In this document: one piece after another, positions 5,836 to 30,885 of the stretch
How the letters are laid out: each line of letters begins with the position of its first letter
Position numbering within the stretch: the stretch's first letter is position 1
NCBI GenBank assembly: GCA_041739675.1
Contig: JBGSNL010000083.1
Location: 1 to 37,212 of the forward strand
DNA from: a bacterium
GTDB lineage: Bacteria > UBA10199 > 2-02-FULL-44-16 > DYJF01
Direction: 5' to 3'
Length of the DNA stretch: 37,212 nucleotides
Notes under the pieces: model-generated
What the model was told of the DNA's origin: nothing
Databases searched by the model: none
Seen by the model: the letters and a program-made list of their open reading frames with translations, nothing else
Program-made: the position numbers and the translations under genes

Positions 5836-7128
5836 ATGGGTCCGCTTTCAATCACGAATATCGGCCGGCTTGTCACGATGGAGCCCGCCCGTCTCGCCTC
5901 GCGAAGCCGCGAGGCTCGCGTGGCGGGCGGGCCCAAACGCGAAGGCCCTCTCGGCGTCATAGAAGATGCGGTTCTCGTTGCGGAAAACGAACATATCAAG
6001 TGGTTCGGAACGCGCAAGGAGTGGCTCCGCCGCCGCAAAGACGGTTTTGAAGAGTTCGACGTCGGCGGAGGGATCGTAACTCCCGGTCTCATCGATTGCC
6101 ACACCCATCTTGTCCACGCGGGTTCGCGCCAGAACGAATTCGCGCTCCGCTCTCAGGGGAAAAAATACTGGGAGATCGCAAAGGCGGGCGGCGGGATAAT
6201 GTCGACCGTTCGCGCCACGCGCAAGGCATCGTATGACGAGCTATACCGCGTCTCCTCCGAGCGCGCGGACGAAACTTTCCTGCGCGGCACTCTGGCCCTT
6301 GAAGTGAAAACCGGTTACGGGCTGGACCTTCAAACCGAGCTGAAAATATTAGACGTCATCCGCACGCTCAAAGACAATCATCCGATAAGATTTTTCGCCA
6401 CTTTCCTGGGTGCGCACGTCGTTCCTGAAGAGATGAAAAACCGCCGCCGCGATTATGTCAGACTCGTCATCGATAAGATGATCCCGGCGGTTGCCAAGCA
6501 GCAGCTTTCGCGCTTCTGCGATATCTTCGTGGAGGAGGGCGCATTCACGCCTAACGAAGCACGTGCGATAGCGAAGGCAGCAAGGAAACACAGGATGGGC
6601 CTGAGGTTCCACGTGGACCAGTTCAAAGACGGCGGCGGGGCGTTGTTGGCCGCAGAGCTCAAGGCCGTCTCGGCCGATCATCTGGACTATATTTCGGACA
6701 AAGGTATCGCGGCCCTGAAGAAGGCGGGCACGGTGGCGGTTGTTCTCCCGGGCGCCACTTTTTTCACCGGCGGGAAACATTACGCCCCCGCAAGAAAGAT
6801 GATCGACAAGGGCCTTTGCGTTGCTATCTCCACCGATTACAACCCCGGCACAAATCCGTGCCTGGATCTTTTCATGACGGCCACGATTGCCGTGTCCCAG
6901 ATGGGTTTAACGCTGGATGAAGCCTGGCGCGCCATCACTATCAACGCCGCGGCCTCACTTGGGATAGACGACGATTGCGGCACAGTCTCGGCAGGAAAAC
7001 GGGCGGACCTCATCGTGCTCGACGCGCCCGACGAATATTTTCCGATGTATCGTTACGGGAAAAATTGCGTGACCGCCGTGATCAAAAAAGGCCGCGCCCA
7101 ATGGCTCGATGAATATTACAATGTGTAA
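5836..7128 (+). CDS. hutI: Imidazolonepropionase
   Basis: PGLIDCHTHLV, GGGIMSTVRATR, EVKTGYGL, FLGAH, SADHL, STDYNPG. Confidence 0.95.
   Translation: MGPLSITNIGRLVTMEPARLASRSREARVAGGPKREGPLGVIEDAVLVAENEHIKWFGTRKEWLRRRKDGFEEFDVGGGIVTPGLIDCHTHLVHAGSRQNEFALRSQGKKYWEIAKAGGGIMSTVRATRKASYDELYRVSSERADETFLRGTLALEVKTGYGLDLQTELKILDVIRTLKDNHPIRFFATFLGAHVVPEEMKNRRRDYVRLVIDKMIPAVAKQQLSRFCDIFVEEGAFTPNEARAIAKAARKHRMGLRFHVDQFKDGGGALLAAELKAVSADHLDYISDKGIAALKKAGTVAVVLPGATFFTGGKHYAPARKMIDKGLCVAISTDYNPGTNPCLDLFMTATIAVSQMGLTLDEAWRAITINAAASLGIDDDCGTVSAGKRADLIVLDAPDEYFPMYRYGKNCVTAVIKKGRAQWLDEYYNV
5884..5931 (+). repeat. 48-bp palindromic element, copy 1 (in frame inside hutI)
   Basis: CCCGCCCG...CCTCGCG-AAGC-CGCGAGG...CGGGCGGG; 44/48 identical to the copy at 15795-15842. 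Confidence 0.9.
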
Positions 7129-8293
7129 AAAATTCGTAATCTGCGTCGCCTCAATTTTAGCCATCCTTTCTATTGCCCAGGTTGCATCGGCAAGAAGATA
7201 TCCAGTTTTGAAAGAACCGTCGTGGGAGAAAGTTAAGGGAGGTTTTGAGCTTTCCGGTTTCGTCAACGCCGCCTACGGATGGCAGAAGTTTTCCAACGAT
7301 ACTATCACAGAGATTGCAAACGACGGCTCGTACGCCGGCCCGATAGGGGAATGGTTGCCGGCCACTTCCGGCGGCCCTCCGCCTTCGCCCGGACAAGAGA
7401 TCGGCCAGTTTTTCATCCCAAGGGTCGAGCTGGACATAAGAAAAAATTTCGGAGACCGAGCGCGTCTCGTGGGCGATCTTCAGTTCGGAAGAGCGACTTC
7501 GGGCTCCTCTTTGCCGATCCCTGGCATCAACGTCGTTCACGCTTACGGAGCGGTCACATTGTATAAGCCCAAAAACGTGCAGTTGTGGATAGGCCGTGTC
7601 GGTCTTCAGGCGGGATTCGAACCCTACGAAGATTATTTCAACGACACCGTTTCGTATTCGGTGATCTGGAGGGGGCTCATCGCGCCCGGCAACGCAACCG
7701 GCATACAGGTAACGGGAGATCTGAACGAGAATTTGCATTACTATTTCATTGTCTCCAACGGCACGGTGAATGACTCCACGTTCAGGCTCGCGCAGATACC
7801 GTCTTTCATGTCCACATGGATCGTCAATTGGGGGCCGGATGCGAAGCAGAGCGGCGTTGTGATCACGCCCTTTGCCGGACCGGAATCTGACACGAACAGA
7901 CACTGGTCGATAGGGCTCGATGCGTACACATACTGGTGGATCGTCCCCGAATTTCAGCTGGGGCTTGAGGGGACGTTTCAACGCGACGGCGCGACGGCCG
8001 GCGGCCCGATCACCTACTATGGGGCGGCTCTCTTAAATCTCCATTGGGAATTTGCAAAGAACTGGTACGTCGTGGGGAAATTTGCTTACGGCGGGCAGTA
8101 TAACGCGGGCAACGGAGTCTTGAATCTTCTGGGCCAGCAGCAGAATGTTTTTGAAAACACGCTCTGTTTCGGCCACCGGCTGACAGACACGGCAAAGATC
8201 AAATTTGAGGGGAGGCTGGATATTGTCGATCCCAAAGGGGCGGCTGCTCAGTATGTCGGTGGATTTGCGATGAGTATGAACTACGCTTTTTGA
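7121..8293 (+). CDS. Outer-membrane beta-barrel protein (putative porin)
   Basis: Signal peptide, ELSGFVNAAY start, alternating beta-strand pattern, C-terminal Phe; start 7121 preferred over 7109. Confidence 0.75.
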   Translation: MCKKFVICVASILAILSIAQVASARRYPVLKEPSWEKVKGGFELSGFVNAAYGWQKFSNDTITEIANDGSYAGPIGEWLPATSGGPPPSPGQEIGQFFIPRVELDIRKNFGDRARLVGDLQFGRATSGSSLPIPGINVVHAYGAVTLYKPKNVQLWIGRVGLQAGFEPYEDYFNDTVSYSVIWRGLIAPGNATGIQVTGDLNENLHYYFIVSNGTVNDSTFRLAQIPSFMSTWIVNWGPDAKQSGVVITPFAGPESDTNRHWSIGLDAYTYWWIVPEFQLGLEGTFQRDGATAGGPITYYGAALLNLHWEFAKNWYVVGKFAYGGQYNAGNGVLNLLGQQQNVFENTLCFGHRLTDTAKIKFEGRLDIVDPKGAAAQYVGGFAMSMNYAF

Positions 8294-10113
8294 ACGAGCT
8301 CTTTCACTTTCCTCACGATGTCATTTTTTGAAATTCCTTCAAAGGCCAGAAGCTCTTCAGTGGTTCCGCTCTTTGGGATCTTTCCCGCAGCAAGTTTGTG
8401 GACGGGAACTGCATAACCGCCGAGCGCGCTCGCTACGGCCTCTCCCAGCCCGCCCTCAGGACTGTGATCTTCGACGGTGACAATCGCCTTCGTTTCTTTC
8501 GCGGCTTTTCCAAGCGCGGCTTCGTCTATTGGTTTGATGCTGTACAGATCGATCACGCGGATGAAAATTCCCGCTTTGGCCAGATCGTCGTATGCCTTGA
8601 GCGCCTCATGAAGCGTGATGCCCGCGGCCACAACCGTGACCGTGTCGTTGCCGCTCTGCCTCACGATTTTGCATTTGCCGATCGGGAACTGCTCTTTCTC
8701 ATCGTAGATGACCGGCGTCGGGTTTCTTGTCGTGCGGATATATACCATCCCCTTGTGTTTCGCCGCCTCCTCAACCAGCTTGTCGGTTGAGACGGCGTCA
8801 CAGGGATAGAGCACCGCGCAATCTTTCACGGTGCGGAACATCGCGATGTCTTCAAGGCCCATCTGCGAAGGTCCGTCAGCGCCTATCGAGACGCCCGCAT
8901 GCGAGCCGGAAAATTTTATGTTGGCGGCGGAGTACTGGCACATTCTTATCTGATCGAAGGCCCTGGTAAAGAATGCGGCGAATGTGGAGACGAACGGAAT
9001 CTTGCCGCGCCTTGAAAGGCCTAGAGCTGCACCCACCATGTTCTGTTCGGCGATATACATCTCAAAAAATCTTTCGGGGCAGGCCTTCTCGAAGGCTTGA
9101 CTGTAAGTCGAGTTGGAGACCTCGCCGTCAAGAACGGCCATGTTCGGATATTTTTCAAAAATCCTCACGAGCGCGTCGCCGTACGCTTTGCGCGTCGCAA
9201 CTTCGCCGGTGTACGAAACTTCTTCGGTTTGGATCTCGGGAATCGCGGGCGACGGCCGTTCGTCTCCCGGTTTTTCTATGACCGCCTTGACGGAACGGTC
9301 GACAGCGCCCATCTCGGCAAGCGCCTTCCCTGTTTCCTCTTTCGAGAGGGATTTGCCGTGCCAGCCGTTCTTGTCTTCAATGAGCGAGACACCTTTGCCC
9401 TTTATCGTCTTCGCGATGATCATCACCGGCATTTCCCTCACGGTCCTGGCTTCCTCGTATGCCCGAAGAATTTTTTCAGGGTTATGGCCGTCATCCACGA
9501 CAATTGTGTGCCATCCGAAGGCGGAGATGCGATCCCTGTATGCGGCGAGATCATGCCCATACATCGTCTCGGCAGTCTGGCCGAGGCGGTTCACATCGAG
9601 AATGCCGATGAGATTATCCAGCTTGTAATGTGCGGCGATCTGAATTGCCTCCCACTGTGAACCCTCGGCCATTTCGCTGTCGCCCAGAAGGACGAACGTG
9701 CGGTAGGGGAGGTGGTCGATATATCTCGCGTTGATCGCCATGCCGACGCCGATGGAGAGCCCCTGTCCCAGCGAACCGGTTGCGGCCTCGGCAAAAGGAA
9801 ACGCGGGTGTGGGATGTCCCTCAAGCGGGCTTCCGAATTTTCTGAGACTCAGGAGATCTTTTTCAGTCAGCGCGCCGGCCGCCGCCCAGAGCGAGTAAAG
9901 AAGGGGAGAGGCGTGGCCCTTTGAAAATATCAGGCGGTCGTTGTTGGGATGATTCGGATTTTTTATATCGTATCTGAAGTGCCCGCCGAACATCAACGCT
10001 ACCGTGAGCTCAACGGCGGAAAGAGAAGAACTTGGGTGGCCCGATCCCGCTTCAGTCGTGGAGATCAGAATATAATAGCGGACGAGCCTTGATATTGTTT
10101 CCAGATTCCCCAC
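8281..10113 (-). CDS. tkt: Transketolase (single chain, about 610 aa)
   Basis: AGSGHPSS, SKGHA, ATGSLGQG, GDSEMAEG TPP motif, IAEQNMV, GADGPSQM, VEDH. Confidence 0.95.
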   Translation of the reverse strand: MGNLETISRLVRYYILISTTEAGSGHPSSSLSAVELTVALMFGGHFRYDIKNPNHPNNDRLIFSKGHASPLLYSLWAAAGALTEKDLLSLRKFGSPLEGHPTPAFPFAEAATGSLGQGLSIGVGMAINARYIDHLPYRTFVLLGDSEMAEGSQWEAIQIAAHYKLDNLIGILDVNRLGQTAETMYGHDLAAYRDRISAFGWHTIVVDDGHNPEKILRAYEEARTVREMPVMIIAKTIKGKGVSLIEDKNGWHGKSLSKEETGKALAEMGAVDRSVKAVIEKPGDERPSPAIPEIQTEEVSYTGEVATRKAYGDALVRIFEKYPNMAVLDGEVSNSTYSQAFEKACPERFFEMYIAEQNMVGAALGLSRRGKIPFVSTFAAFFTRAFDQIRMCQYSAANIKFSGSHAGVSIGADGPSQMGLEDIAMFRTVKDCAVLYPCDAVSTDKLVEEAAKHKGMVYIRTTRNPTPVIYDEKEQFPIGKCKIVRQSGNDTVTVVAAGITLHEALKAYDDLAKAGIFIRVIDLYSIKPIDEAALGKAAKETKAIVTVEDHSPEGGLGEAVASALGGYAVPVHKLAAGKIPKSGTTEELLAFEGISKNDIVRKVKELVQKA

Positions 10114-10114
10114 T

Positions 10115-10190
10115 TGGTGGAGCTGAACGGGATCGAACCGTCGACCTCCTGAATGCCATTCAGGCGCTCTCCCAGCTGAGCTACAGCCCC
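10115..10190 (-). tRNA. tRNA-Ala(GGC)
   Basis: Reverse complement GGGGCTGTAGCTCAGCTGGGAGAGCGCCTGAATGGCATTCAGGAGGTCGACGGTTCGATCCCGTTCAGCTCCACCA: 76 nt, G3-U70, GGC anticodon, encoded CCA. Confidence 0.97.
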
Positions 10191-10369: not shown

Positions 10370-10396
10370 GCAACTTTTAGGGGCCCGGGCCGATGA
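10370..10396 (+). promoter_or_regulatory. Putative sigma28 (FliA)-type promoter
   Basis: GCAACTTT-N11-GCCGATGA vs consensus TAAAGTTT-N11-GCCGATAA; same motif and spacing at 17025. Confidence 0.6.
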
Positions 10397-13300
10397 TACG
10401 TATGATGCGATACGCCCCGCCCACAAGCCTTGGAGTGGCGCCGTCAGGTGTCGGCTGTTCGAGCTGTCATCATAGTGAAACCTCATCCGCAATAGAGCCG
10501 CAACCGGCAGGCACAGATCCAAACGGTTCGGTTTTTGTGAACCCGGATGCCCCCTGTCCGCACTGCCATCCGGCGCTCCCATTTTCATCGCAGACTATCT
10601 TTTCCCGCGGGGCCGCAGAGGAGATGCCGTCGCCGTTCGTGCCCGACGCCGCAATGGGCGCGCGCTGGGACGAGAAACTCGCCTCGTTCCACGAGGCCGT
10701 CTCGTCGGGCGACCCTGACCTTCAGGATATGCTGTTCAGGGAGCTGGTTGACGTCGCCATCAGGCGCTACCACCTTGAAAATTCCTATGGCGATCTGGAG
10801 GAGAGCAGGGCGGTACTGGTTTTTCTAAAAAATCAGCTATCCGAATCGGAATCCTTTTATTTTTCCACAAACGCGTGCCATGCCGGGACAAGGGATGCAG
10901 CTCTCTATCTTCGAGCGCCCTCCGAAATTATGGGCCTCATTGACAGGCAGAAAGAAGTGATCGCCGCGCAAGATGGGATCCGAAACGAGGCCCTCAATCT
11001 TCTTGAAAATGATTTGCTCGATGCTTTGGCCGGTCTTGATGAGATGCCCGTCGAAGACGGCCTGCCGCAGGAGATGACGCTCTCGCCGGCGGCTGCCTCG
11101 ATCTTCGGCGATATTTTCAAATCGCTCGCAGATATGGAGCGGGCGCAAAAATATTACAACATAGCCGCGATCAATCCCCTCCAGACGGCCACGGGCGCAG
11201 TCTGGTACCGAATCCGCGCTCTCGAGATCGACGTCCGTTCCGAAGATGAATCGAAAAGGAAAGAGGCGGTGAAAGAAATTGAGTCGCTGCGCGCGGGGCT
11301 CTCCGATCTGCTCTTTGCCATATACGACGAGCGGATAACGGAAGAGGCGAGGAGCTCCATCTCTGAAGATACCGTAAGCGTGAATTTGGAGGACAATGTC
11401 CCCCGTGTATCCGCGGGGACCGAAGATCAGGTGTACGAAATCGACGCGCTGGCATGGGGCGTTCTCTACGACGCCTATGTGAAAGCGGGTGATGACGGTA
11501 AGCTGCATGAGCTGGAAGAAGACAGGCGCGGGATGGTGCGCGGCAGAATCGGCGAAGCTGGCGAACTGGAGTCGCTCCTGCAAGTGGACAACATGGACAG
11601 GGTTGCCCTTTTGAAGACCGTGCACAAAGGCTCCATCGAGCAGGCGTTGCGCTCGGAAGATCAGCGGGCGGCGGGCAGGGTTCAGCGGCAGCTGATAGAG
11701 GACCTGAGAGACGTATATGCCCTGATAAATCCCAACATGGAGAGAAGGCGCGGCGATCCGATCTTCGAGGGTTTTGCAAGACTCAACTGGAGGACTTTTT
11801 TCGGAGGTTATGCGGCGCGGGATCTCCCGCAGACGGCGCTCTATTATCTCGCCGATTTCATGGTCAAATCTTCTGCTTCGGACGAGTGCGTTAACATGGA
11901 CGACGGCCCTCAGCTTTGCGAACCTCCGGCGGACGCGCCGCAGGAGTATCCGGAAATTTATATGAACGCGCTGGACGACGATCTGGACCAGGCGCAGGAT
12001 TGCCGGAACTGCGCGGCGCCGTATGACGAATACTACGACAGGTCGGGCGACCGCCTCTCGGGGGCGGCGCCGTGGTTCTACGATGAGTACGACAGGGTCG
12101 TTGGATTCGGGGATACGAACTTCATCGAATCGGAGCTTGCGCATTTAAGGGAAAATGCGCCGCAGGTTTTCTTTGCCGACGGTACTCTCAATCCGGACGT
12201 CGACGTCGAGGACACGGAAGCTGCCGACAGAGTTATGTCGGCATACTGGCGGAGCAACGACACCTTGAGGGAGGTGGGTCTGCCCGCGAGCGCCGCAATC
12301 GGCTGTTTCGCCATCGCGACAATTTTTGCCGAGACCCTTGTTGTTCCGACGATCGCCGCGGTGGTCTGCGGCGGCGGGGCAAGTCTTGCCAATCGCGAGA
12401 TAAACGAATCGAACGCCTCCGACCAGTATTGGCAGGCGCGAAACACGGGCATTGCGCAGATCACGCCGAGGGAGGCGAAGGGCAACAAGGGGGTCTGGTA
12501 TTTCACGGAAGGAATGAACACGATCTTCAACGCGGCGATGCTGGGGCCGGCGACGTCCGTATGGGGACGCGCGGGTCTGGAGGCGCTGAAGAAAGGCATC
12601 GCAAGGGGGAGCGGATGGCTCGCGGGTGAAGCTGGAGTGAGAGCCCTTCTTCGGGCCGCGGCAGGGCCCCTCGAGACAGTCAGCAGAGCCGCGCTCGGAA
12701 TCGGCCGGGCCGCGGAAACGGCGGGCCAATGGTATTGGAAGCTTCCCGTGGGGACGAGACTTCGAATGGCGGGTCTGCTGCCCGCCGGCATCGATTACGG
12801 CTTTGTGAACCGCGACGGAAATCTTGTTTCGTGGGACGGCAAACTCGACCACTGGTACGGTTATGCGGGTCTCACGGCGGCGGCAAGCGAAGCGGGGTAC
12901 CAGCTTTTCAGCCGCACATGGCAGCCTGCGTTTGCCGAGGCAGTGGCGGCTAGCTCACTGCGAAGCGGTATTGCGCGCCTCGGTGCGGATATGGCCGCGT
13001 CGGATTATTATCTCGTCAAAAAAAATCAGAACGGTGAATACGAATTTGTGGATTTCAACGGGCCGCGGTCCACCTCTCTGGAAGAACACGCCTTTGAATC
13101 GCAATTCGGCATCGATACATATCTCGGCGCGGGAGGCCTCCTCCTGGCCAGCGGTGACTGGATGCAAAACGAGATCCGGATGATGAGCTGGCTTGAACGC
13201 ACCTTGGCGACGGCCGGGGCAGGTGGCGTCATCTATGACATCGCCGACGACGGCCACCTGAATTCGGCTGCCGGCGGAATCGGCGGATCGATCATCGCTT

Positions 13301-15153
13301 CCGAAGTGTGCTATCGCGCATTGAATGTCAATGCATTGGGGTCCATGGCTTTCCTGCCCTTCAGGATTTTGGGCGAGTGGACGGTGCAGGCGATGCAGGA
13401 CGTTCCGATACAAGCACCCGATCCGGTTCGTCTCATATCATCCACGGCGGAGAGCGCCTTCATGCTCATGGTCGTGAAGGGGCTCTATCAGGGAAATCAT
13501 TACTGGAACACTTTCCCGCTCGGAAGAAATCTGGCGGCCGCATCGTCGGAATTGCCGGTATTGAGATACCTGCGCTCGATCCAGAACCTGGGGCGTTATT
13601 CCATGTTCGGCGGCAACAAGGCGTCTCTGGACGGCTGGTCCGGCGGCATACGGACGCGTCCGCTCAGAAGCATGGCAAACGGCGACGTGGTCTACAAGCT
13701 GCGCGGCGACAAACACTGGAACGGGTTTGCAGAGAACAACGAGGATCTGATCCTCCGCGTGGCGGCACAACCCGGCGGCGCCGCTCCGAAATTTTTCTTC
13801 AATGAAATGCAAGTGACCGAGAATTTTCTGTTGGAGCACGGCTATTTTTACAGAAACGGCGCAATTTTTGAATTTCAACCGCTGCGCAACGGTCACCTTT
13901 ATCTTGGCGGAAGGAAGATGACCGCGCATGAAATCAGAAACTTAAACGACGGCGCGCGTTCGCGCGTGGTTTCTGAACTCAGGGAGAACGGCTGGCGCAT
14001 GACCGGAAATCATTTTGAACGTTATTGGATTGAAAGGCCCTACCATCCCGAGGTCCTGCTCGAAAGACCTCAGGGAAGATTGAGCACGCCTGAATATAAG
14101 ATCGTGGAATCGTCTGTCAGACTCAACGGCGACACGGTTCCGGTGTGGCTCAAATTTTCGCGGCGCACGATAATGGCCGATGAAGCCTTGGTCGGAGGCA
14201 GAAAGATCGTTACCTGGACGGGCCAGCGCGAGCAGCCGCATTTTACGCCATGGGGAGTGGCGATTCAGGGACCGCCCGTGATCGGCTCGGCCTACGCCAC
14301 CAACTATCTCTTGTTTCACAGGGTTGCGCGCGGCGATCCCGAGTATCAGCCGCTCAGCCGTCTGGCACTCTATGTTCCGACCGTCTATTTCACTTGGCCG
14401 GTCATTCAGGCTCCCCTGGGGCTGGACACTGCGCAGGCGCGCCTGACCGGAACGCTTTTCGGCCAGTTTTTCCTAATGGGCTCAGCATGGCTTTATCCTC
14501 CGTATCGGAATACGGCTCCGGGACAGCAGACATTGTACGATCTCCTTGATGCGGGCGGAACCATCGACCGGCCCTGGTATCATCCGAACTCCGACAATGC
14601 ATTCGACTCCTTCGGGCGCATCGCGACAAGTTTCAGCCCCGGTTTCTGGGGATCGACTCAGGGCAGTTTTTTTGAAATCGAAAACCCGGCAATGGATAAT
14701 TTAAGGATAGGTCTGGACTGCCGCATGGATCTGGCAAACGACATCGACTTCGGCGATTCGAGATCGTGCATCTCGCTTCCGGATTCGACGCAGGATCAGA
14801 TCCGGATGCTGGAACACGATGTGGATATGGAAATCATGAAAAAGCGCCTGGACGCGTGGGCTAAACTCTTCGAGAGCAAGATGGGCGAGGAGAGGGGCGA
14901 CGATTTATCGGAGCGCGAGAGGCGCCTTCTGATCATGCTCGGCGCGTGGTTCAAACATATGCTCAATGACAACGAGCGCTACGAACCGGTTTTGGAAAAC
15001 ATTCGCCGCGTTCGCGCAAGCCAGCAATACGCGTGGTTCTTCGATTTGATCCCCACGCTCACGACCGATTCGGAATGGGAAGATTTTGTGAAGCAGGTCA
15101 ACGGCGGCAGGGCGCGCGCCTCGGATTTCTATTTCGACCCGCACATGCATTGA
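10393..15153 (+). CDS. Giant hypothetical protein (about 1,580 aa); true start may be ATG 10402 or 10405
   Basis: Uninterrupted 4.76-kb ORF; no signal peptide; N-terminal CxxCH x2; central Gly/Ala hydrophobic segments. Confidence 0.85.
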   Translation: MIRMMRYAPPTSLGVAPSGVGCSSCHHSETSSAIEPQPAGTDPNGSVFVNPDAPCPHCHPALPFSSQTIFSRGAAEEMPSPFVPDAAMGARWDEKLASFHEAVSSGDPDLQDMLFRELVDVAIRRYHLENSYGDLEESRAVLVFLKNQLSESESFYFSTNACHAGTRDAALYLRAPSEIMGLIDRQKEVIAAQDGIRNEALNLLENDLLDALAGLDEMPVEDGLPQEMTLSPAAASIFGDIFKSLADMERAQKYYNIAAINPLQTATGAVWYRIRALEIDVRSEDESKRKEAVKEIESLRAGLSDLLFAIYDERITEEARSSISEDTVSVNLEDNVPRVSAGTEDQVYEIDALAWGVLYDAYVKAGDDGKLHELEEDRRGMVRGRIGEAGELESLLQVDNMDRVALLKTVHKGSIEQALRSEDQRAAGRVQRQLIEDLRDVYALINPNMERRRGDPIFEGFARLNWRTFFGGYAARDLPQTALYYLADFMVKSSASDECVNMDDGPQLCEPPADAPQEYPEIYMNALDDDLDQAQDCRNCAAPYDEYYDRSGDRLSGAAPWFYDEYDRVVGFGDTNFIESELAHLRENAPQVFFADGTLNPDVDVEDTEAADRVMSAYWRSNDTLREVGLPASAAIGCFAIATIFAETLVVPTIAAVVCGGGASLANREINESNASDQYWQARNTGIAQITPREAKGNKGVWYFTEGMNTIFNAAMLGPATSVWGRAGLEALKKGIARGSGWLAGEAGVRALLRAAAGPLETVSRAALGIGRAAETAGQWYWKLPVGTRLRMAGLLPAGIDYGFVNRDGNLVSWDGKLDHWYGYAGLTAAASEAGYQLFSRTWQPAFAEAVAASSLRSGIARLGADMAASDYYLVKKNQNGEYEFVDFNGPRSTSLEEHAFESQFGIDTYLGAGGLLLASGDWMQNEIRMMSWLERTLATAGAGGVIYDIADDGHLNSAAGGIGGSIIASEVCYRALNVNALGSMAFLPFRILGEWTVQAMQDVPIQAPDPVRLISSTAESAFMLMVVKGLYQGNHYWNTFPLGRNLAAASSELPVLRYLRSIQNLGRYSMFGGNKASLDGWSGGIRTRPLRSMANGDVVYKLRGDKHWNGFAENNEDLILRVAAQPGGAAPKFFFNEMQVTENFLLEHGYFYRNGAIFEFQPLRNGHLYLGGRKMTAHEIRNLNDGARSRVVSELRENGWRMTGNHFERYWIERPYHPEVLLERPQGRLSTPEYKIVESSVRLNGDTVPVWLKFSRRTIMADEALVGGRKIVTWTGQREQPHFTPWGVAIQGPPVIGSAYATNYLLFHRVARGDPEYQPLSRLALYVPTVYFTWPVIQAPLGLDTAQARLTGTLFGQFFLMGSAWLYPPYRNTAPGQQTLYDLLDAGGTIDRPWYHPNSDNAFDSFGRIATSFSPGFWGSTQGSFFEIENPAMDNLRIGLDCRMDLANDIDFGDSRSCISLPDSTQDQIRMLEHDVDMEIMKKRLDAWAKLFESKMGEERGDDLSERERRLLIMLGAWFKHMLNDNERYEPVLENIRRVRASQQYAWFFDLIPTLTTDSEWEDFVKQVNGGRARASDFYFDPHMH

Positions 15154-16872
15154 TCACTTGGACAATTTGCCGGTCGTCACTTTTTCGATGGCGGCAGCCA
15201 ACTCCTTCGCCTTCCGGGCAAGATTGTCAGCCGTTGCTCGCGTTTTTTTCACCCACTCTGTATCGCCTATTCCGCCAAGGTTGATGAGTACATTATAATA
15301 CGCGCCCATCGCGGCGGTGTAGCCGGTGAGCCCGGCGACTCCCGCGTCGGAGAGGGAATTCTTGTTTCCCTGTTCGGCAACCTTGAGCGCCAGATCGAGC
15401 GACGTGATCGATTTTTCCATCACGCCCAGCGGAACAAGTGTTGCGCGCTTCGTGGCCTCTTCAAGAGCGCGCGCCCGGACCTTTTTTTCTTCGTCGGTGC
15501 CTTTCGGCATTCCGAAACAGGCCATCACGGCGTTGAAGGCATCCGTATCCTTGTCGATCGCCTCAACCTGCAAGCGCATGTTTGACTGCGCGGCGACACC
15601 GACTTTTTCCATATCATCCCACACTTTTTCGTAACCCTTCTTGTTGTGCGTGAGTGCCGCAACCATGGAGGAGAGGGCTGCCGATAGCGCGCCCGCGAGC
15701 GCGGCCACCGATCCGCCGCCGGGAGCGGGGGAGGCGGACGATAATTCGTCTGCAAAAGCTTTCACGGTCATTGAAGCCAATGGCATATCCACCTCCCGCC
15801 CGCCATGCGAGCCTTGCGGCTTCGCAAGGCGAGGCGGGCGGGCAAAGTGTGATTCGATTATTTTTTTGTGTGGGTCGAACGGTGTTGCGTCGTTCAAACC
15901 AAGAGATCTTATCGCGGTCTGTATCAGCATCTTTTCAGGGACGCCTGAGTTCCCTTTTTGTTTTTTGAGATAGTGGACCCCGGCGTCTATCATCGCCTTT
16001 TTCGGGACGAGCCCCACGATCTCGCTTCCAGTGACGCGGAGGCCCAGTTTGTCCGCTTCCTTCACGCACGCATCGAAGACCTCATGCATGGGCGTCACAG
16101 TGAAGTCGGTGAGGTTGATCGTCACCTGTGCGCAGTTGTATTCGGGGATGAGCCAGCCGGTAGCGCGGCAGTGCTTGAAAAGCCCCGGCACGTAAACGGT
16201 GTCGCCTTGCGAATCGACGACCTTGTTGCCTTGCTTGTCCCTTTTGATGCGCCCCTTCTCGCGAATCGCAAACGCGATCTCCTTTGCGAGCCTCACGTCG
16301 GTCGTGTTGAGATTGACGTTGTACGCGATGAGAAACTGGCGCGCGCCGATAACGGTTGCGCCGCTTTTCGCGTTGAATTCGGCGGGGCCGAAATCGGGTT
16401 TCCATTCGGGTTTTTTTATTTTTTCGGAGAATCCCTCGTATTCTCCCGCGCGGATATCGGCGAGGCTCTTTCTTTGAGATGAAGTCGCGGCGTGTTCATA
16501 AAGATAAACCGGAATATTCAGTTCGTCTCCTACGCGTTTTCCCAACTTTCTTGCAAGTTCCGCGCACTCTTCCATCGTGACGCCTGCGATTGGAACGAAA
16601 GGGCAGACGTCTGTTGCGCCCATTCTCGGGTGCGCGCCTTTCTGATGGCGCATGTCGATCAACTCGGACGCTTTTTTGATTGCGAGAAACGCCGCTTCAA
16701 GAACGTCTGTCGGCGCGCCGGCGAAAGTGAAGACGGTGCGGTTCGTAGCCGCGCCGGGATCCATATCGAGAAGCTTCACGCCGGAGACGGACCGAATTTC
16801 GCACGCGATAGCATCGAGGATTTTCCTGTCTTTCCCCTCGGAAAAATTCGGAACGCACTCGACAAGTTTCAT
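15154..16872 (-). CDS. ftcd: Bifunctional glutamate formimidoyltransferase / formiminotetrahydrofolate cyclodeaminase
   Basis: LVECVPNFSEG, GAHPRMGATDVCPF, SEIVGLVP; C-terminal SPAPGGGSVAAL, GNKNSLSDAGV. Confidence 0.95.
   Translation of the reverse strand: MKLVECVPNFSEGKDRKILDAIACEIRSVSGVKLLDMDPGAATNRTVFTFAGAPTDVLEAAFLAIKKASELIDMRHQKGAHPRMGATDVCPFVPIAGVTMEECAELARKLGKRVGDELNIPVYLYEHAATSSQRKSLADIRAGEYEGFSEKIKKPEWKPDFGPAEFNAKSGATVIGARQFLIAYNVNLNTTDVRLAKEIAFAIREKGRIKRDKQGNKVVDSQGDTVYVPGLFKHCRATGWLIPEYNCAQVTINLTDFTVTPMHEVFDACVKEADKLGLRVTGSEIVGLVPKKAMIDAGVHYLKKQKGNSGVPEKMLIQTAIRSLGLNDATPFDPHKKIIESHFARPPRLAKPQGSHGGREVDMPLASMTVKAFADELSSASPAPGGGSVAALAGALSAALSSMVAALTHNKKGYEKVWDDMEKVGVAAQSNMRLQVEAIDKDTDAFNAVMACFGMPKGTDEEKKVRARALEEATKRATLVPLGVMEKSITSLDLALKVAEQGNKNSLSDAGVAGLTGYTAAMGAYYNVLINLGGIGDTEWVKKTRATADNLARKAKELAAAIEKVTTGKLSK
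15795..15842 (-). repeat. 48-bp palindromic element, copy 2 (in frame in the ftcd inter-domain linker)
   Basis: Reverse complement CCCGCCCGCCTCGCCTTGCGAAGCCGCAAGGCTCGCATGGCGGGCGGG. Confidence 0.9.
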
Positions 16873-20200: not shown

Positions 20201-21865
20201 AAGGTCGACAGGAATCCCACTGAAAGATTCTACGATGCGGCAACCGTAGCCGGAAGGCGCTATGATTTTCCGGCTCCGTTTACGGGACGGAACGCGGTGC
20301 AAAACCTTTCGCCTTTCACATCACTTCTGCTTTCGGCTTCGCAGACGGACGTCGCTTTCCAGACGAGGGCCGACCCCACATTCTTCGCGGGCACGATCTA
20401 CGGTTATTTTATGACGCCTGTCGATAAGGCGCAGATGACCAGAGACGATTATGTGAAGAAGATTATCGAACCGCTCCTCGAGCTTGTCAGAGAGAATACG
20501 AGCGGAAACAGGTTGGGAGACAACAGGCGTGATGTCAGACACAATCTTCTTGTGACCGTCTGGCTCGCTTCACAGGGTCCCTACGGTGACATCTTGAGAA
20601 AATGGATGGACCTTAACAAGCACATATATCAGGCTAACGGGATATACGGCATGCTGAAAGTCGATGGCGTCCATTTGCGCCTGCCCGGCAGCTTGAGTGA
20701 AAGCAGAGTGATAAAAGATCTAGTAAAGCGTTTCCTCTGGAATTCAGACAATTCCGCCGACGGCAAAATTGTCTATCCCGTCCAGCACGGCTTCGAAGTA
20801 GCGAGCAGCAGCAGAGCGCATTCCGCCTCATCTCCTGACGTGTCTGCTGCGCAGACGGCTGGAGCTCAACCAAGATCTCTTGCACAAACCCCGGTGCGTG
20901 GCGCGCCGGCGTGCAATTTCTTGGATATCAACGAGATCTCGACGGATACGGAGAGACAGCGTTTGATAGACACGACCGGCAAATTGCTGATGGAAGACAT
21001 ATTCAGAGACGGCAAATTTTACAGGGAATACACTCCTGAAAACCTCAAGTGGCTGCCCGGCGAAGCCGGTCAGATTGGCCGTCCTATCATGCTTGATATC
21101 GAAAAGACCGGAAGGCTCACGGAACCTCAGAGATCCTTGCTCAGCAGACTTATTCTGGCGATGTCGCTGAACGATATGGTCGATGTATCGAGAATCCTTA
21201 CCGCTATGACCGGCGGCGCCTTGACCGAGGAAGGTGGCAATCTTACTTCTCAGGTCGCGCCCGTAATGGAAGGTAACGACAGGATGTCGGCCAAGCTGAT
21301 GTCGCTCTTCACACTTGTCGCCGGCCGCACCTCCAACTTTGAGCCCAGTTATTTCCAGGCCATCAATACGATAATCTCGTGGGAAAAGATGCTCTCAGAT
21401 ATCGACCCCGACGTCGATTTTTCAACTTACGCAGTTCCCTTCCTCAGAGGTGAAGTGATTGGAAACGCGGGGCAGGGAGGAGCATCTCCCGCCGCTACAC
21501 CGCAGGCTTCTCCCGCGCCGCAAACTCCGCCCGCGCCAGCCGCACCAGTTGCGCCTCGGACAGGGGCTCCGGCGATGTCATCCGTCGAAGAGACCGTCAC
21601 GGAAAGCACGCCGATGCCTTCGGGAGCCGACGTTGCGATGACCTCCACCGTCACGGGATTGGTGGAAGTGGAATATGAGACGAGCGGCGGGGCATATGAA
21701 GGTTTTGAAGTCGATCTGCCGTCTGAAACGAGGCAGGCACACTCACAGGTGAACGGCGCCCGGATGCTCTATCAGCGCGGATCTGCGGCAAGGCAGATGA
21801 GGCCCGCGGCCCGCCCGGCCATGTTCGCACCGGCCGTCACGGCGGTGCGTGTGGCAGTGCCGTAA
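17201..21865 (+). CDS. Giant hypothetical protein (1,554 aa) with multi-TM centre and degenerate UbiB/ABC1-like C-terminal domain
   Basis: RBS AAGGAG; helical N-region, hydrophobic middle, DIFRDGKFYREYTPEN...IMLDIEKTGRL...DIDPDVDF segment, Pro/Ala tail. Confidence 0.85.
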   Translation: MAPPISRASSSIRPSISFDISPTFEKPLVISVDRPTFGLHLPVFANHPFLVQPPMIQNNSILVDSRVMAARAEFHQAVSIMGENPEEAGRLFTIVRDDRREVARRLLGSLDQLYVESTFGSALLGKVTEVTFEDLRRVRKRAKAIGDTATMAREMLVRAVAHSRINDDEAAMDVLDRLLETAEAKNPLLRINVLMMRANLLMNHADRHTGIPRSFSLNTLADMMKNDFSASVKQLPNDAGQNADLLASLAKFYVFTAEYMLEQRRPLDAKEIINVARRIFPDDATIENLFAVNGASEDGPSSVAVSPLHHLLTDQPTAFDHMIAGATQLFRNAEFENNKTFWSYAVKGSLAGAALMAGGAILTDTDPSMMLTMMGSAVGATGAVTVGKFRRGIIAPETGQAFITGYNTDSSSRAFFKEAAKLLATYAVFGGIVPGASALDSGLMATDSGQFHGLGSLFSYVFNSAAFRTEEFFHAVSQSGLVAGAGAFWNHWVDTSLFARTLNNGFTLPFDNTFERLFRKSKWDMLPEWIRTVSFDSPMETARSLGVMMLYGYMGISGLFAFASMNPVAADYLKKRVPDKAVPWLFLGAFLATDAAMIASGIEPASAPILALWNYAIQHRHWVQGGGEYNIFRKSVREDLPWMTYATAGAVQLLYIAPGNAIAADIPKIAQAGGIGPFLWNIVEVNAGMVGFLASLGVLHAIFTGLNIKQTLKAKYAKAWTYEVPANAVKLIAGWNSLLGNIIGPFIKEVGFGAPVTNVFREAGNSRIQRAMVMKIIAAQSAQMRAEALNGELVQGEVALDSPMLELQQQMVDSANSLHDAGVQAALRGEAYGYLNVALTGHPISEQLLVLPDIYFMEDDRRLLLRPDIRKDRYNDIIYRALTDPATQASTIEEYFRKLVVIAADVSPEQRHIRYNLIISTMRAMAGKAHGAEIEQFFTEGQGRSLIDAYNLQDIFGEVTAIPRDEGANAWRGLAFRRPAKWIEKHVLRPGVTPEDRKEKKVDRNPTERFYDAATVAGRRYDFPAPFTGRNAVQNLSPFTSLLLSASQTDVAFQTRADPTFFAGTIYGYFMTPVDKAQMTRDDYVKKIIEPLLELVRENTSGNRLGDNRRDVRHNLLVTVWLASQGPYGDILRKWMDLNKHIYQANGIYGMLKVDGVHLRLPGSLSESRVIKDLVKRFLWNSDNSADGKIVYPVQHGFEVASSSRAHSASSPDVSAAQTAGAQPRSLAQTPVRGAPACNFLDINEISTDTERQRLIDTTGKLLMEDIFRDGKFYREYTPENLKWLPGEAGQIGRPIMLDIEKTGRLTEPQRSLLSRLILAMSLNDMVDVSRILTAMTGGALTEEGGNLTSQVAPVMEGNDRMSAKLMSLFTLVAGRTSNFEPSYFQAINTIISWEKMLSDIDPDVDFSTYAVPFLRGEVIGNAGQGGASPAATPQASPAPQTPPAPAAPVAPRTGAPAMSSVEETVTESTPMPSGADVAMTSTVTGLVEVEYETSGGAYEGFEVDLPSETRQAHSQVNGARMLYQRGSAARQMRPAARPAMFAPAVTAVRVAVP

Positions 21866-28049: not shown

Positions 28050-28925
28050 ATGATTATTCATCATCATCTACATGCCTATGAGGAGGATCGTCCGACACTT
28101 TGGCCCTATCTGGTGGCGTCGATCCTTCTGCATCTGCTCATGTTTGTCTTCTTCCCGTATCACGTCCAGTCCCCGTCGTGGAAAGAGAAGGTCGTCGAAG
28201 TGTTTCCCGTCACAGAGAAGGGCAGCCAGCCCTACGAGATCGCCGACATCGCGAAACCCGCGGTGGAGAAGAGGCCCAAGTCCGCAAGATTTTTGGGGAT
28301 GTACGACAGCTCCGTCGAGCAAGAGACGGTGGCGCGGACTGTGAGGCAGAAATCGGCGGGCTCAGATCAGAAGCGGGAAGCGAGAAAAGAGAAGCAACAG
28401 ACAAAAGAGAAGAGCAAGGAAACGGCAGATGCCGGGAGAATGACGATTGGAAAGAAGAAGTCGCTATACGATGTTGACAGAAAACTCTTTGCCTCGAAGA
28501 CGCCGGATATCGACAGCAGGAGCGGCGAGCTGGGAGGCGCGGCGGAGGCTCTGGCCGATTACTATCCCGATTACCGCATCGGCGCGCGCACGTATCTCAA
28601 CGTTCTTCGCTATCCGGATGTCGAATATTTTGTAAGGATGAAGCGCCAGTTCAAGATGACGTTCAACCCGGTTCCGCCGCTTCGGGCTTATTTTGCCCAA
28701 AACCGCGTGTCGCGCGGTTCGATCGAAGTGGTGCTCGCCGTGAGCGTCAACAGCGGTGGCAACCTCTCCGAACTTTTCGTTCTGAACAGTTCCGGAATTC
28801 CCACCTACGATCAGGAGGCGATGCGCACTATCCGCGCGTCGGCACCGTTCCAGAGTCCGCCCGACAAATTCCTGAAAGACGACGGCCTTCTCCGCATGAG
28901 CTGGACCTTCACCGTTTATCTATAA
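28050..28925 (+). CDS. TonB/TolA C-terminal-domain membrane-anchored protein
   Basis: SILLH TM motif, charged linker, C-terminal NSSG...YDQEAMRTIRASAPF.SPP. Confidence 0.8.
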   Translation: MIIHHHLHAYEEDRPTLWPYLVASILLHLLMFVFFPYHVQSPSWKEKVVEVFPVTEKGSQPYEIADIAKPAVEKRPKSARFLGMYDSSVEQETVARTVRQKSAGSDQKREARKEKQQTKEKSKETADAGRMTIGKKKSLYDVDRKLFASKTPDIDSRSGELGGAAEALADYYPDYRIGARTYLNVLRYPDVEYFVRMKRQFKMTFNPVPPLRAYFAQNRVSRGSIEVVLAVSVNSGGNLSELFVLNSSGIPTYDQEAMRTIRASAPFQSPPDKFLKDDGLLRMSWTFTVYL

Positions 28926-29034
28926 GATGTCCTGATAATTGACGCAGATAAGTAATATTTAACATCATTTTCCACACCTCTTTCTATAAACCTAATCATT
29001 ACGCCTAATTATCGATCCAGCTCTCTTCCGAGTT

Positions 29035-29051
29035 CCGGCACGGAGTTTGCT
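29035..29051 (+). promoter_or_regulatory. sigma54 (-24/-12) promoter
   Basis: CCGGCACGGAGTTTGCT: GG-N10-GC matching YTGGCACG-N4-TTGCW. Confidence 0.7.
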
Positions 29052-29094
29052 TAAAGTATGTGTGGGTTTGGGAAGTCAAAAAAAGGAGGGTTTT

Positions 29095-29709
29095 ATGACA
29101 AGACCGATAAATCAGATATTGAGCAGTTTGTTGCAGGATGCCCGTAGCGTGGGCAATCTTGGCAACATCGAGGGGACAGAATATGTTCCCGTGAATTTGA
29201 GGCAGGCGAGCGTAGTTTCTTTTTCACGTGAGGATTTCGAAGCCTTGCCCGCGGACGAACAACAGGCGCTGGTTCAGGCCGGATACGGGTTCGGCGAGAT
29301 AAGAACTAAAGGGGACGTGATAAGTCCGAATCCGCGGGTGCATGCTGACGCATTCTATGTCGTCAGTAAGCATGAAATAACTGGCGAAGACATATTCTCA
29401 CCTGCCTACGGCTTTTTAACTGAAATGGAGCGCAACAACGTGGCTGCCTACAATGCCAGCGCGCAACTGGCACATGTTGAGAGCGGCGGAGGTACCGCCA
29501 TGGCAGAGGAAATGCCGCTCGACAACCGGATAAAAGCTCACGGTAGAAAAGACGCCGAAACGGGTTACATGGTTCTGAGTGATGACCATGTCAGGATGAT
29601 GGACGTTCCTGAACTCATGAGGCGCGGCTGGTTCAGAATGGATGTCGACGGCGTAGAACAATGGGTGAGGGAGCCCGGGGAGAGCGCCAACGTTTTGCGC
29701 GAAGAATGA
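29095..29709 (+). CDS. Hypothetical protein (204 aa)
   Basis: RBS AAGGAGGG then ATG 29095; own promoter and terminator. Confidence 0.8.
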   Translation: MTRPINQILSSLLQDARSVGNLGNIEGTEYVPVNLRQASVVSFSREDFEALPADEQQALVQAGYGFGEIRTKGDVISPNPRVHADAFYVVSKHEITGEDIFSPAYGFLTEMERNNVAAYNASAQLAHVESGGGTAMAEEMPLDNRIKAHGRKDAETGYMVLSDDHVRMMDVPELMRRGWFRMDVDGVEQWVREPGESANVLREE

Positions 29710-29731
29710 GAATGAATCTTGAAAGAGAATC

Positions 29732-29765
29732 AAAAGGCCCTCGCGAAGAGGGCCTTTTATTTTTT
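29732..29765 (+). terminator. Intrinsic terminator (possibly bidirectional)
   Basis: AAAAGGCCCTC-GCGAA-GAGGGCCTTTT followed by a T-run, between convergent genes. Confidence 0.85.
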
Positions 29766-30834
29766 ACTGTGCGGATACGTATGCGGGGTAGAGCGCCCGG
29801 CCCCTTTCGAAATATTCATTGGGAAGCTCTTCGTCGCCCCGTTTCTCATACAGTTCGCTGATGTTAAAATAGATGAGCGGAAGAGAGGGATCGTAGCTCA
29901 GTGCCGCCATATATTCACCAAGTTTGAAATTGAAGAGTCTGTCGGACATCGCGGCATAGACGCCGTTGTAAAGCGGCTCGTGATACTCCGCCGGCGGGCG
30001 GGCGCCGCGGCTCATTCGATAATTTGCCGCAGCCGCGAGATCGCTCGTCTCCACCCACTCCCTGTGGGGACTGGCAAGGAATGGGGAGGCCCAGGCAAGA
30101 TCCGCCAGCGTGACATCGTCGGGATGGGCGGGGTCAAGATGGAGTGCGACGCACATGTGATCGACGCGGCGGCCCGTGTTGTCCACGGTCACGGCAACGA
30201 AGCGTGCGTCGAGACCGGCGAGGCGGCATAGCTCGACGAAGATCATCGAGAGCTCCGTGCAATCCCCCACGCGTGTCCCGGTCAGCGTCTCTACGACGGA
30301 TGTCTCGGAGGGCGCGTTGCCCAGTGCGCGCGTCACTCCCAGCCCGTTGGAGGCCAGGACGTAATCGGCAAGGGTCTTGGCAAGGGCCCGGTTATATTCT
30401 ACCGAGTCGGAAGATAGCCCGCTCTGAGCGATCTCGTTTTTGATCGATGATATGCGTGAAGAGATTTTTTCGAGAAGAGATGTGTTAAGAGGTCTGGACG
30501 GCAGCTGTTCGGCCAAGAACCATCCGGCCCTGAACGTTGTATTTTGCGAAACAAAACTGGAATAGGGAAACGAATCGAGCGTGAACGACGAGGTCGCGAA
30601 CGCGTTTCTCTCTTCCTCCTGCAGCACGGCAATCGTTCTGCTGAGCACTTCACCCGCTTCAGGGCAGCCGTTTTCTACTGTTTCGGAAATGATCTCGGTG
30701 TGGGGAGGGGATGCAGTAAAGTCGATTTTCGGGACGCCGACATCTATGTCGGCCAAACTGCTGACGCCCGAAGAGATATGCCAGTCGTACAAAGTGGCGG
30801 CGTCGCCCGAAAGTTGTGGACAAGTAGGAGACAT
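29764..30834 (-). CDS. Transglutaminase-like (Cys-His-Asp) domain protein with C-terminal TPR-like segment
   Basis: GDCTELS.IF..LCRLAGL.ARFV, HMCVAL, LADLAW; C-terminal ALSYDP...YFNISELY..RG. Confidence 0.8.
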   Translation of the reverse strand: MSPTCPQLSGDAATLYDWHISSGVSSLADIDVGVPKIDFTASPPHTEIISETVENGCPEAGEVLSRTIAVLQEEERNAFATSSFTLDSFPYSSFVSQNTTFRAGWFLAEQLPSRPLNTSLLEKISSRISSIKNEIAQSGLSSDSVEYNRALAKTLADYVLASNGLGVTRALGNAPSETSVVETLTGTRVGDCTELSMIFVELCRLAGLDARFVAVTVDNTGRRVDHMCVALHLDPAHPDDVTLADLAWASPFLASPHREWVETSDLAAAANYRMSRGARPPAEYHEPLYNGVYAAMSDRLFNFKLGEYMAALSYDPSLPLIYFNISELYEKRGDEELPNEYFERGRALYPAYVSAQ

Positions 30835-30841
30835 TTCTTAC

Positions 30842-30885
30842 CCCGCCCGCCTCGCCTCGCAAGCTCGGCTTGCGTGGCGGGTGGG
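30842..30885 (+). repeat. Palindromic element, copy 3 (44-bp variant, non-coding)
   Basis: CCCGCCCGCCTCGCC-TCGCAAGCTC-GGCTTGCGTGGCGGGTGGG; same arms as copies 1 and 2, shorter centre. Confidence 0.8.

What the first reader, a model, noticed from the sequence alone, without database searches (positions are those of the whole stretch)
5884..30885. 48-bp palindromic mini-element inserted in frame inside housekeeping enzymes (hutI, ftcd)
Seen: the same GC-rich element occurs at 5884-5931 (+, in hutI), 15795-15842 (-, in the ftcd linker) and, as a 44-bp variant, at 30842-30885 (non-coding). It has 8-bp terminal inverted repeats CCCGCCCG/CGGGCGGG and an inner hairpin. Copies 1 and 2 are 44/48 identical, and two of the four differences form a compensatory pair (CCTCGCG/CGCGAGG to CCTTGCG/CGCAAGG). 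Both coding copies are exactly 16 codons and have no stop in any of six frames. They are read in different frames (PARLASRSREARVAGG vs ARPPRLAKPQGSHGGR). Excision restores clean junctions (E-P-K; F-E-V). The only copy whose length is not a multiple of 3 is outside a CDS. Known analogue: Rickettsia palindromic elements. Inference: a non-autonomous mobile hairpin that adds peptide loops to proteins, conserved at the nucleic-acid structure level; its mobiliser is unknown.
Basis: partly seen in the sequence, partly recalled or inferred. Interest (0 to 1): 0.8.

Follow-up and report, generated by a model that had tools for sequence, protein, structure and literature searches.

The report
Hairpin mini-element of tiny nuclease transposon
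The three 44-48-base hairpins are real inserts that close relatives lack at the same sites; they belong to a family of about 22 copies in this genome, ten of them inside genes whose frame stays open, and they share their ends with a roughly 300-base element, found in other bacteria, that encloses one tiny GIY-YIG nuclease gene, which likely moves them.

Summary
All three copies are absent from relatives about 93-97% identical. The genome holds about 22 copies (39-79 bp). Ten lie inside genes and all keep the frame open, in 4 of 6 frames. The same ends occur in several phyla. In 15 of 77 distinct loci fetched by protein similarity alone, the two halves of this hairpin enclose an 82-90-aa GIY-YIG nuclease gene (one reads through to 112 aa). 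This 285-390-bp unit splits host genes cleanly. This genome has no such full-length unit. It has a 66-72% identical nuclease gene beside its longest copy, at the tmRNA 5' end. Corrections: the terminal repeat is 10 bp; stop-free frames are chance-level; the hutI gap is 14 codons, not 16. That the nuclease moves the element is inferred, not shown. The closest published case is Ssn/NTS, whose IS-like origin is only hypothesised. I found no paper on this family. This scan has already reported similar GIY-YIG-enclosing elements on other DNA.

The parts
5884..5931 (+). 48-bp hairpin mini-element, copy 1, in frame in hutI after codon 16 (net 42 bp against relatives)
5836..7128 (+). hutI (imidazolonepropionase), 430 aa, open frame, host of copy 1; the insert lies upstream of the region covered by TIGR01224
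15795..15842 (-). 48-bp hairpin mini-element, copy 2, in frame in the linker between the formiminotransferase and cyclodeaminase domains; clean empty site in relatives
15154..16872 (-). ftcd (fused formiminotransferase-cyclodeaminase), 572 aa, open frame, host of copy 2
30842..30885 (+). 44-bp hairpin mini-element, copy 3, intergenic, 7 nt upstream of the ATG of the minus-strand ORF 29764-30834; empty site skips exactly 44 bp with 2 letters fitting either side

Best explanation
The three hairpins are gene-less short forms of a very small mobile element whose full-length form is the two halves of the same hairpin around one GIY-YIG nuclease gene, and that nuclease likely moves them in trans. 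SHOWN: the copies are insertions, because empty alleles exist. They share their ends with 285-390-bp nuclease-enclosing units that split host genes without any duplication longer than 0-2 bp. In this genome they almost always sit next to a GG on one side, in either orientation. The genome carries an intact relative of that nuclease beside its longest copy at the tmRNA 5' end. INFERRED: the two ends pair into a stem on single-stranded DNA, and the nuclease would recognise that stem and nick at its base, as SsnA does beside its hairpin. The freed hairpin would then be joined into a nicked GG-containing target by host repair enzymes. Copies in genes survive only where the frame stays open and the site is a tolerant loop or linker, and the extra 12-16 residues are probably translated and neutral. 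Copies beside ribosome-binding sites would survive because the terminal G run can replace the G's of the site. The cut position and the joining step are speculative (about 0.3).
For: Empty sites: ftcd net 48 bp and hutI net 42 bp in X2 and X3 (one study), copy 3 exactly 44 bp in X3, X5 and X8 (two studies). Orthologue gaps of 12-16 aa at ten coding copies. Of 77 distinct loci chosen only by similarity to the C29 nuclease, 15 have the gene between the left half and the right half of this hairpin. An end motif occurs in 54 of 81 such loci, against 1 of 32 Y1-transposase loci and 1 of 30 generic GIY-YIG loci. Removing the unit in silico restores PF13366 genes: the halves match profile positions 2-72 and 74-116. 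It also restores an epimerase-like start and other frames at different sites. A genome of the same class has minis that consist of exactly the full-length ends plus about 6 bases (L364, L365). Y5, Y16, R26, H30 and E62 are invariant in 60 aligned homologues. The model has pLDDT 96.9, and its nearest solved folds are UPF0213, Slx1 and HIGLE. Median dN/dS is 0.10 in the 12 of 120 pairs where dS could be estimated. The nuclease gene is 36% GC in a 53% GC genome. All 4 genomes with dispersed copies have the hairpin or its right end at the tmRNA 5' end; two genomes without dispersed copies have neither hairpin nor nuclease there. GG flank: 17 of 20 copies, background 0.124, p=3e-13.
Against: No activity was tested. 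A single nuclease domain has no known strand-joining chemistry. No full-length unit was found in this genome. The C29 nuclease lies beside, not inside, a hairpin, and its place in the tree is unresolved (quick tree, 81 columns). Nucleases at least 60% identical occur in only 3 of 93 class genomes. G026 and G040 have dispersed copies but only 47-55% identical hits, and G058 has the nuclease but no short copy under the pattern. None of 80 mini-element loci from other species has such a nuclease within 1.5 kb. The GG flank is not general: other genomes show different flanks. Five of the 15 full-length units sit at one and the same host site, which could be one old insertion.
Confidence: 0.68

Rival explanations
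1. The hairpin is a selfish palindrome spread by host processes (hairpin processing, repair, template switching). The nuclease gene is a passenger that was once caught in its loop, or a separate tRNA-linked cassette that the hairpin favours as a target.
For: Most close-nuclease loci have a complete hairpin beside the gene (31 upstream and 6 downstream of 77), often inside a duplicated 5' piece of a tRNA gene. The family nests in many other repeats. Co-occurrence with a close nuclease is incomplete.
Against: The enclosed form occurs at several unrelated sites with clean junctions and a gene under purifying selection. Related nucleases carry different terminal repeats, and end type clusters on the tree, which fits enzyme-end pairing, although kinship alone can also produce such clustering.
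Confidence: 0.18
2. The element is a REP/REPIN-like unit moved by one of the two Y1 (RAYT/IS200-type) transposases in this genome.
For: Two PF01797 genes are present. ssDNA hairpin recognition with little or no target duplication is typical of that family (established knowledge). Intragenic REPs are known (PMC3733652, passages).
Against: No copy lies beside either gene, and only 1 of 32 Y1 loci carries an end motif. There is no GTAG or CGTC tag. PF01797 is in 78 of 93 class genomes, whether or not they have the element.
Confidence: 0.07
3. The element acts at RNA level: it is spliced out or bypassed, or it serves as a regulatory hairpin before ribosome-binding sites and as a tmRNA leader.
For: The ends form a stable stem. 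Six non-coding copies end 7-11 nt before an ATG. The longest copy overlaps the first 3 nt of tmRNA.
Against: All ten coding copies keep the frame, which removal at RNA level would not require. Both orientations occur. There is no Rfam match in the window other than a tRNA. Positions are not conserved between close relatives.
Confidence: 0.07

Closest known systems
Ssn single-stranded DNA nucleases with NTS/SRM hairpins (SsnA, cd10448; Chenal et al. 2025, PMC11893778; read: parts 1-3 of 11, Discussion, term passages, 12 of 14 supplements searched)
   Same: A single-domain GIY-YIG protein of about 85-95 aa tied to its own dispersed hairpin family. Conserved Tyr, Tyr and Glu at equivalent places (SsnA Y6/Y17/E64; here Y5/Y16/E62). 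The authors liken NTS-ssnA-NTS to an IS as a hypothesis.
   Different: Here the gene lies between the two halves of one hairpin, not between two complete tagged hairpins. There is no CGTC tag. About half of the copies are in CDS, against 2% for NTS. Filled and empty sites give comparative evidence of insertion. The protein is only 40% identical over 72 aa to this genome's Ssn-like protein and lies far from it in the tree. The sequence terms were not found in the supplements searched.
Rickettsia palindromic elements (RPE; as summarised in PMC10969869 and PMC3733652, passages read; original papers not read)
   Same: Palindromic DNA inserted in frame in unrelated housekeeping genes; about half of the copies are in ORFs.
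   Different: RPE-1 is about 150 bp and is described as encoding a conserved peptide. Here the copies are 39-48 bp, read in four frames, occur across phyla, and have a candidate full-length parent.
Bacterial MITEs (Correia/NEMIS, RUP, Nezha; PMC3184786, passages read)
   Same: Short non-coding element with terminal inverted repeats shared with a longer gene-carrying element; filled and empty orthologous sites.
   Different: The parent encodes a GIY-YIG nuclease, not a recognised transposase. There is no distinct target duplication beyond 0-2 ambiguous bases. It is smaller than the 70-300 bp given for MITEs in PMC3733652.
GTAG/CGTC-tagged REPs and REPINs with RAYT (PMC3733652: part 1 of 8, passages, 4 supplements searched)
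   Same: Short GC-rich hairpins, some intragenic, some nested in other palindromes.
   Different: No tag or tail, no Y1 gene nearby, and symmetric ends. In other genomes this element inserts into the loops of such REPs.

Membership tests
MITE (non-autonomous TIR element) | terminal inverted repeats | tested here: met
   10-bp repeat, 98.6% of cells paired over 14 copies
MITE (non-autonomous TIR element) | dispersed copies with empty orthologous sites | tested here: met
MITE (non-autonomous TIR element) | ends shared with a gene-carrying element | tested here: met
   15 of 77 loci; L364 and L365
MITE (non-autonomous TIR element) | target-site duplication | tested here: inconclusive
   0-2 letters (G/GG) fit either side and cannot be told from the element's own end
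MITE (non-autonomous TIR element) | parent encodes a recognised transposase that acts in trans | tested here: not met
   the parent gene is PF01541 only; action in trans cannot be tested with these tools
Ssn / NTS-SRM | single-domain GIY-YIG of about 90 aa with catalytic Tyr, Tyr, Glu | tested here: met
Ssn / NTS-SRM | member of the cd10448 clade | tested here: inconclusive
   No CDD library and no SsnA sequence were at hand. Against a proxy (this genome's GIY-YIG flanked by CGTC-type hairpins, C33) identity is 40% and the branch is long and separate, which suggests a different branch.
Ssn / NTS-SRM | flanked by CGTC-tagged oriented hairpins (SRM) | tested here: not met
   flanks are the CCCGCCCGCC-ended hairpin or its halves
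Ssn / NTS-SRM | site-specific cutting of ssDNA only | not testable with these tools
   needs purified protein
RPE | in-frame insertion in ORFs | tested here: met
   10 of 10 coding copies keep the frame
RPE | sequence family of Rickettsia, about 100-150 bp, conserved encoded peptide or CGTC tag | tested here: not met
   39-48 bp, four frames, no tag; RPE sequences themselves were not aligned
REP/REPIN-RAYT | GTAG or CGTC tag at one end | tested here: not met
   flanks of 20 own and 83 foreign copies
REP/REPIN-RAYT | copies flank a Y1 transposase gene | tested here: not met
   1 of 32 PF01797 loci
IS110-type element | PF02371 transposase in the genome | tested here: not met
   0 matches in a 94.6% complete genome

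The most novel reading that the evidence does not exclude
A prokaryotic class of self-contained mobile elements of only about 300 bp that use a single 85-residue GIY-YIG nuclease as their only enzyme. Each nuclease lineage is paired with its own hairpin ends, has a home site at tRNA or tmRNA 5' ends, and spawns 20-80-bp derivatives that write short loops into essential proteins (MurC, RNase R, YbeY) across several phyla.
Probability: 0.4. Interest if true: 0.9.

Novelty: new variant of a known kind. Interest (0 to 1): 0.7.

Why it matters
How tiny in-frame palindromes such as RPEs and CGTC-type REPs move has been an open question; the 2013 survey concludes that CGTC REPs lack a dedicated transposase. 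Here a mini-element, a full-length parent with the same ends, filled and empty alleles in near-identical strains, and an intact 83-aa candidate enzyme in the same genome make the question directly testable with one small protein and 48-base oligonucleotides. If the nuclease moves the element, it would be a transposition route outside the DDE, HUH, serine, tyrosine and IS110 types (those categories are from my own knowledge), and a source of new hairpin-specific nucleases. It also gives ten natural insertion-tolerant sites in housekeeping enzymes. The in-frame behaviour itself is a known kind, and this scan has met related elements before.

Tried and rejected
Rfam: only a tRNA in the window. 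Y1/RAYT transposases are present but unlinked. No IS110 transposase. Generic PF01541 presence is uninformative (91 of 93 genomes). A HutI model from a single sequence had pLDDT 39.8 and was not used, so the surface exposure of the inserts is argued only from orthologue gaps and the B. subtilis HutI alignment. The first automatic classification mis-sorted nested cases and had an invalid reversed-motif control; it was replaced. The careful tree did not finish and only the quick tree was used. A model in which a 2-nt 3' overhang at GG primes insertion fits this genome but not the flanks in other genomes, so it is not claimed. The idea that the ftcd copy fused two genes was rejected: 5 of 5 relatives have the fused gene. 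No plasmid homologue of the nuclease at E<=1e-10. In viral contigs there was one close nuclease locus and two pattern hits. No RNA holder was listed. An ORF list for a Pfam scan of neighbours was prepared but not sent; the neighbours looked like unrelated genes by eye, and tblastn found no close nuclease in 0 of 80 loci. Nine paper searches found no description of this family. A recalled paper on very small cyanobacterial repeats (Elhai 2008) was not held and was not read. Two Ssn supplement files were not searched and could list related proteins.

Full report
1. Observation. The three copies lie at 5884-5931 (+), 15795-15842 (-) and 30842-30885 (+). Copies 1 and 2 are 44/48 identical and are read in different frames of open genes. 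The hosts are hutI and a fused formiminotransferase-cyclodeaminase. Each copy folds far better than its shuffles (z -3.7 to -5.7). The terminal repeat is 10 bp, and the inner stem shows changes on both sides at 4 of 8 pairs over 14 copies, while the outer stem hardly varies. That alignment mixes length classes and the copies are kin, so this is suggestive only. The absence of stops in six frames is not informative: 39-57% of shuffles share it.

2. The family in this genome. Paired-end and profile searches give 20 complete copies of 39, 42, 44, 45, 48 and 79 bp, plus one cut by a contig end and one long degenerate copy. The reversed-genome control has nothing below E 2.4. Ten copies lie in genes: hutI, ftcd, murC, rlmD, rnr (RNase R), ybeY, an MFS transporter, a radical-SAM protein, a cysteine-rich unnamed protein (C1) and a large unnamed protein (C45). 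All ten frames are open, in four of the six possible frames. Orthologues from up to five relatives show gaps of 14 (hutI), 16 (ftcd, murC, rlmD), 15 (radical SAM), 13 (MFS, C1), 14 (rnr) and 12 (C45) residues. At ybeY the loop length varies among orthologues, and the 44-bp copy is in frame together with one neighbouring G. Length mod 3 does not separate coding from non-coding copies significantly (9 of 10 against 6 of 11, p=0.15), so survival of open frames is a sufficient explanation. Six of the twelve non-coding copies end 7-11 nt before an ATG, where their terminal G run adjoins a purine-rich spacer. A GG lies directly outside one end in 17 of 20 copies, in either orientation (background 0.124, p=3e-13); the ftcd copy has a single G.

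3. Empty sites. Contigs of relatives about 96-97% identical lack copy 2 (net 48 bp; X2, X3) and copy 1 (net 42 bp; X2, X3); both runs are from one study. Copy 3 is skipped by exactly 44 bp in X3, X5 and X8 (two studies; the shorter side is 45, 236 and 45 letters), with two letters fitting either side. The insertions are therefore recent, and any target duplication is at most 2 bp and cannot be told from the element's end. The hutI event came with a 6-bp loss.

4. Range. The specific pattern occurs in 4 of 41 relatives. The looser 10-bp-end pattern occurs in 27 of 93 genomes of the class, including a 20-bp pure palindrome and up to 81 matches per genome; the control pattern hit two genomes once each. 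Among 83 distinct foreign copies most are 36-39 bp, and many sit in the loops of other repeats. My labels for these hosts (REP-like hairpins, heptamer arrays, tRNA fragments) come from reading the flanks by eye. Their flanks do not follow the GG rule. Six loci have a copy inside a long open frame, one of them probably a chance match.

5. The candidate mobiliser. The 79-bp copy lies between an 83-aa GIY-YIG gene and tmRNA, after smpB; its last three G's are the first three bases of tmRNA. G003 and G058 have the same smpB-nuclease-hairpin-tmRNA cassette. G040 has the long hairpin and G026 its right end at that place; for G040 I could not tell whether a nuclease gene lies upstream. G001 and G002, which lack dispersed copies, have neither hairpin nor nuclease there. 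I then fetched loci by protein similarity alone: the best 80 of 560 confirmed metagenome candidates plus one viral locus, 77 distinct. In 15 of them the gene lies between the left half (beginning CCCGCCCGCCTCGCC) and the right half (ending TGGCGGGC plus three bases) of this same hairpin, giving units of about 285-390 bp with proteins 66-72% identical to the C29 protein. The automatic sort gave 14 such, 31 with a complete hairpin upstream (one of which is a nested enclosed case), 6 downstream, 5 with other terminal repeats, 5 with fragments and 16 with none. Removing the unit restores a PF13366 gene in six loci (five at one site, one at another), with the two halves matching profile positions 2-72 and 74-116 in the locus tested; an epimerase-like start and other frames are restored elsewhere. 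In the filled state the host frame holds 5-13 stops. Minis are nested in the ends of several units, and G026 has minis made of the full-length ends plus about six bases. An end motif occurs in 54 of 81 close-nuclease loci, 1 of 32 Y1-transposase loci and 1 of 30 generic GIY-YIG loci. The protein keeps Y5, Y16, R26, H30 and E62 in all 60 aligned sequences. It folds with pLDDT 96.9, and its nearest solved folds are UPF0213, Slx1 and HIGLE. It shows dN/dS near 0.1 in the 12 of 120 pairs that could be estimated.

6. Against this reading. No full-length unit was found in this genome, and none of 80 foreign mini loci has such a nuclease within 1.5 kb. Only 3 of 93 class genomes have a nuclease at least 60% identical. 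Two element-positive genomes have none with this query, and one nuclease-positive genome has no short copy under the loose pattern. Within the 41 genomes the association is 2 of 2 against 2 of 39 (p=0.007), but the two positives are kin. The quick tree clusters the enclosed type but does not resolve where the C29 protein belongs. A lone nuclease domain has no known joining activity.

7. Mechanism. Shown: recent insertion, shared ends with a nuclease-enclosing unit, clean junctions, a conserved active site, and an intact relative in the genome. Inferred (0.68): the nuclease acts in trans on the paired ends. More speculative (about 0.3): it nicks single-stranded DNA at the stem base, as SsnA cuts a few bases beside its hairpin (PMC11893778), and host repair joins the hairpin into a GG-containing target. 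Coding copies persist where loops and linkers tolerate 12-16 more residues; the same RNase R loop in G001 has taken an unrelated repeat insertion. Rivals are a passenger nuclease (0.18), a Y1 transposase (0.07) and an RNA-level function (0.07).

8. Comparison. It behaves like RPEs and intragenic REPs and is built like a MITE, but its parent encodes no recognised transposase and it has no REP tag. The closest system is Ssn/NTS. That paper's Discussion calls NTS-ssnA-NTS IS-like as a hypothesis and reports 2% of NTS inside genes. The present protein is 40% identical to this genome's Ssn-like protein, has other flanks, and sits inside a split hairpin. Nine searches and supplement searches (two files not searched) found no description of the family; subscription papers are mostly outside the library. 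I reached the GIY-YIG link before consulting earlier notes on it. Those notes supplied the Ssn paper and show that this scan has reported GIY-YIG-enclosing elements and in-frame derivatives on other DNA several times; one note reads a neighbouring nuclease as a separate cassette. These notes are not independent support.

9. Verdict. This is a real, recently mobile, cross-phylum hairpin element with a named and testable candidate enzyme: a new variant of a known kind, interest 0.7. It would be a new transposition class (interest 0.9, probability 0.4) if the nuclease proves sufficient.

Noticed in passing
window 8292-10112: The transketolase-like gene next to the tRNA at 10118-10190 is absent from close relatives in three runs (joint 8291 to 10113): a gene-sized insertion or loss beside a tRNA. 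The gene label is my reading of the translation.
   Followed up: no
window 10393-15153 and 17201-21865: Two very long ORFs (1586 and 1554 aa) with no family that I recognised flank ftcd; the first is present in close relatives.
   Followed up: no
window 598-1520 and 1933-2086: Two tandem ORFs of about 135 aa with 72% similar 71-nt ends, and a 28-nt direct repeat 126 bp apart.
   Followed up: no
G000 several contigs; C85:9887-10250: A sibling family of about 25-bp hairpins (GCCCGCC-N11-GGCGGGC type), often beside ribosome-binding sites, resembles the hairpin between a second GIY-YIG gene and tRNA-Ser: possibly a second enzyme-hairpin pair in the same genome.
   Followed up: partly
G000 C33:38576-38794 (L327): GIY-YIG gene flanked on both sides by CGTC-type hairpins: a likely Ssn member.
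   Followed up: partly
L172 and L169 (G002, G003), 3' part of tmRNA: tmRNA is interrupted near its T-loop by an insert; in G002 it is followed by an ORF with a LAGLIDADG-like motif (motif recognised from memory). ARAGORN misses both genes. Possibly a group I intron in tmRNA.
   Followed up: no
L331 (G001 rnr): An unrelated heptamer-repeat insertion sits in frame in the same RNase R loop that holds the 42-bp element in G000.
   Followed up: partly
L242, L254, L260, L299, L301, L302, L311, L312 and others: Close nuclease genes lie between a duplicated 5' piece of a tRNA gene, which carries a complete hairpin insert, and an intact tRNA: a second architecture whose origin is unexplained.
   Followed up: partly
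L249, L252, L256: Related nucleases enclosed by a different pair of terminal repeats, inserted in genes that look like four-helix-bundle proteins (label from memory).
   Followed up: partly
L239, L257: Full-length units inserted near a gene start are followed by a second, intact copy of that gene's first codons, so the host gene is restored downstream.
   Followed up: no
L031, L040, L058, L070, L003, L071, L104: In other genomes the mini-element sits in the loops of REP-like hairpins, in heptamer arrays and in tRNA-like fragments.
   Followed up: partly
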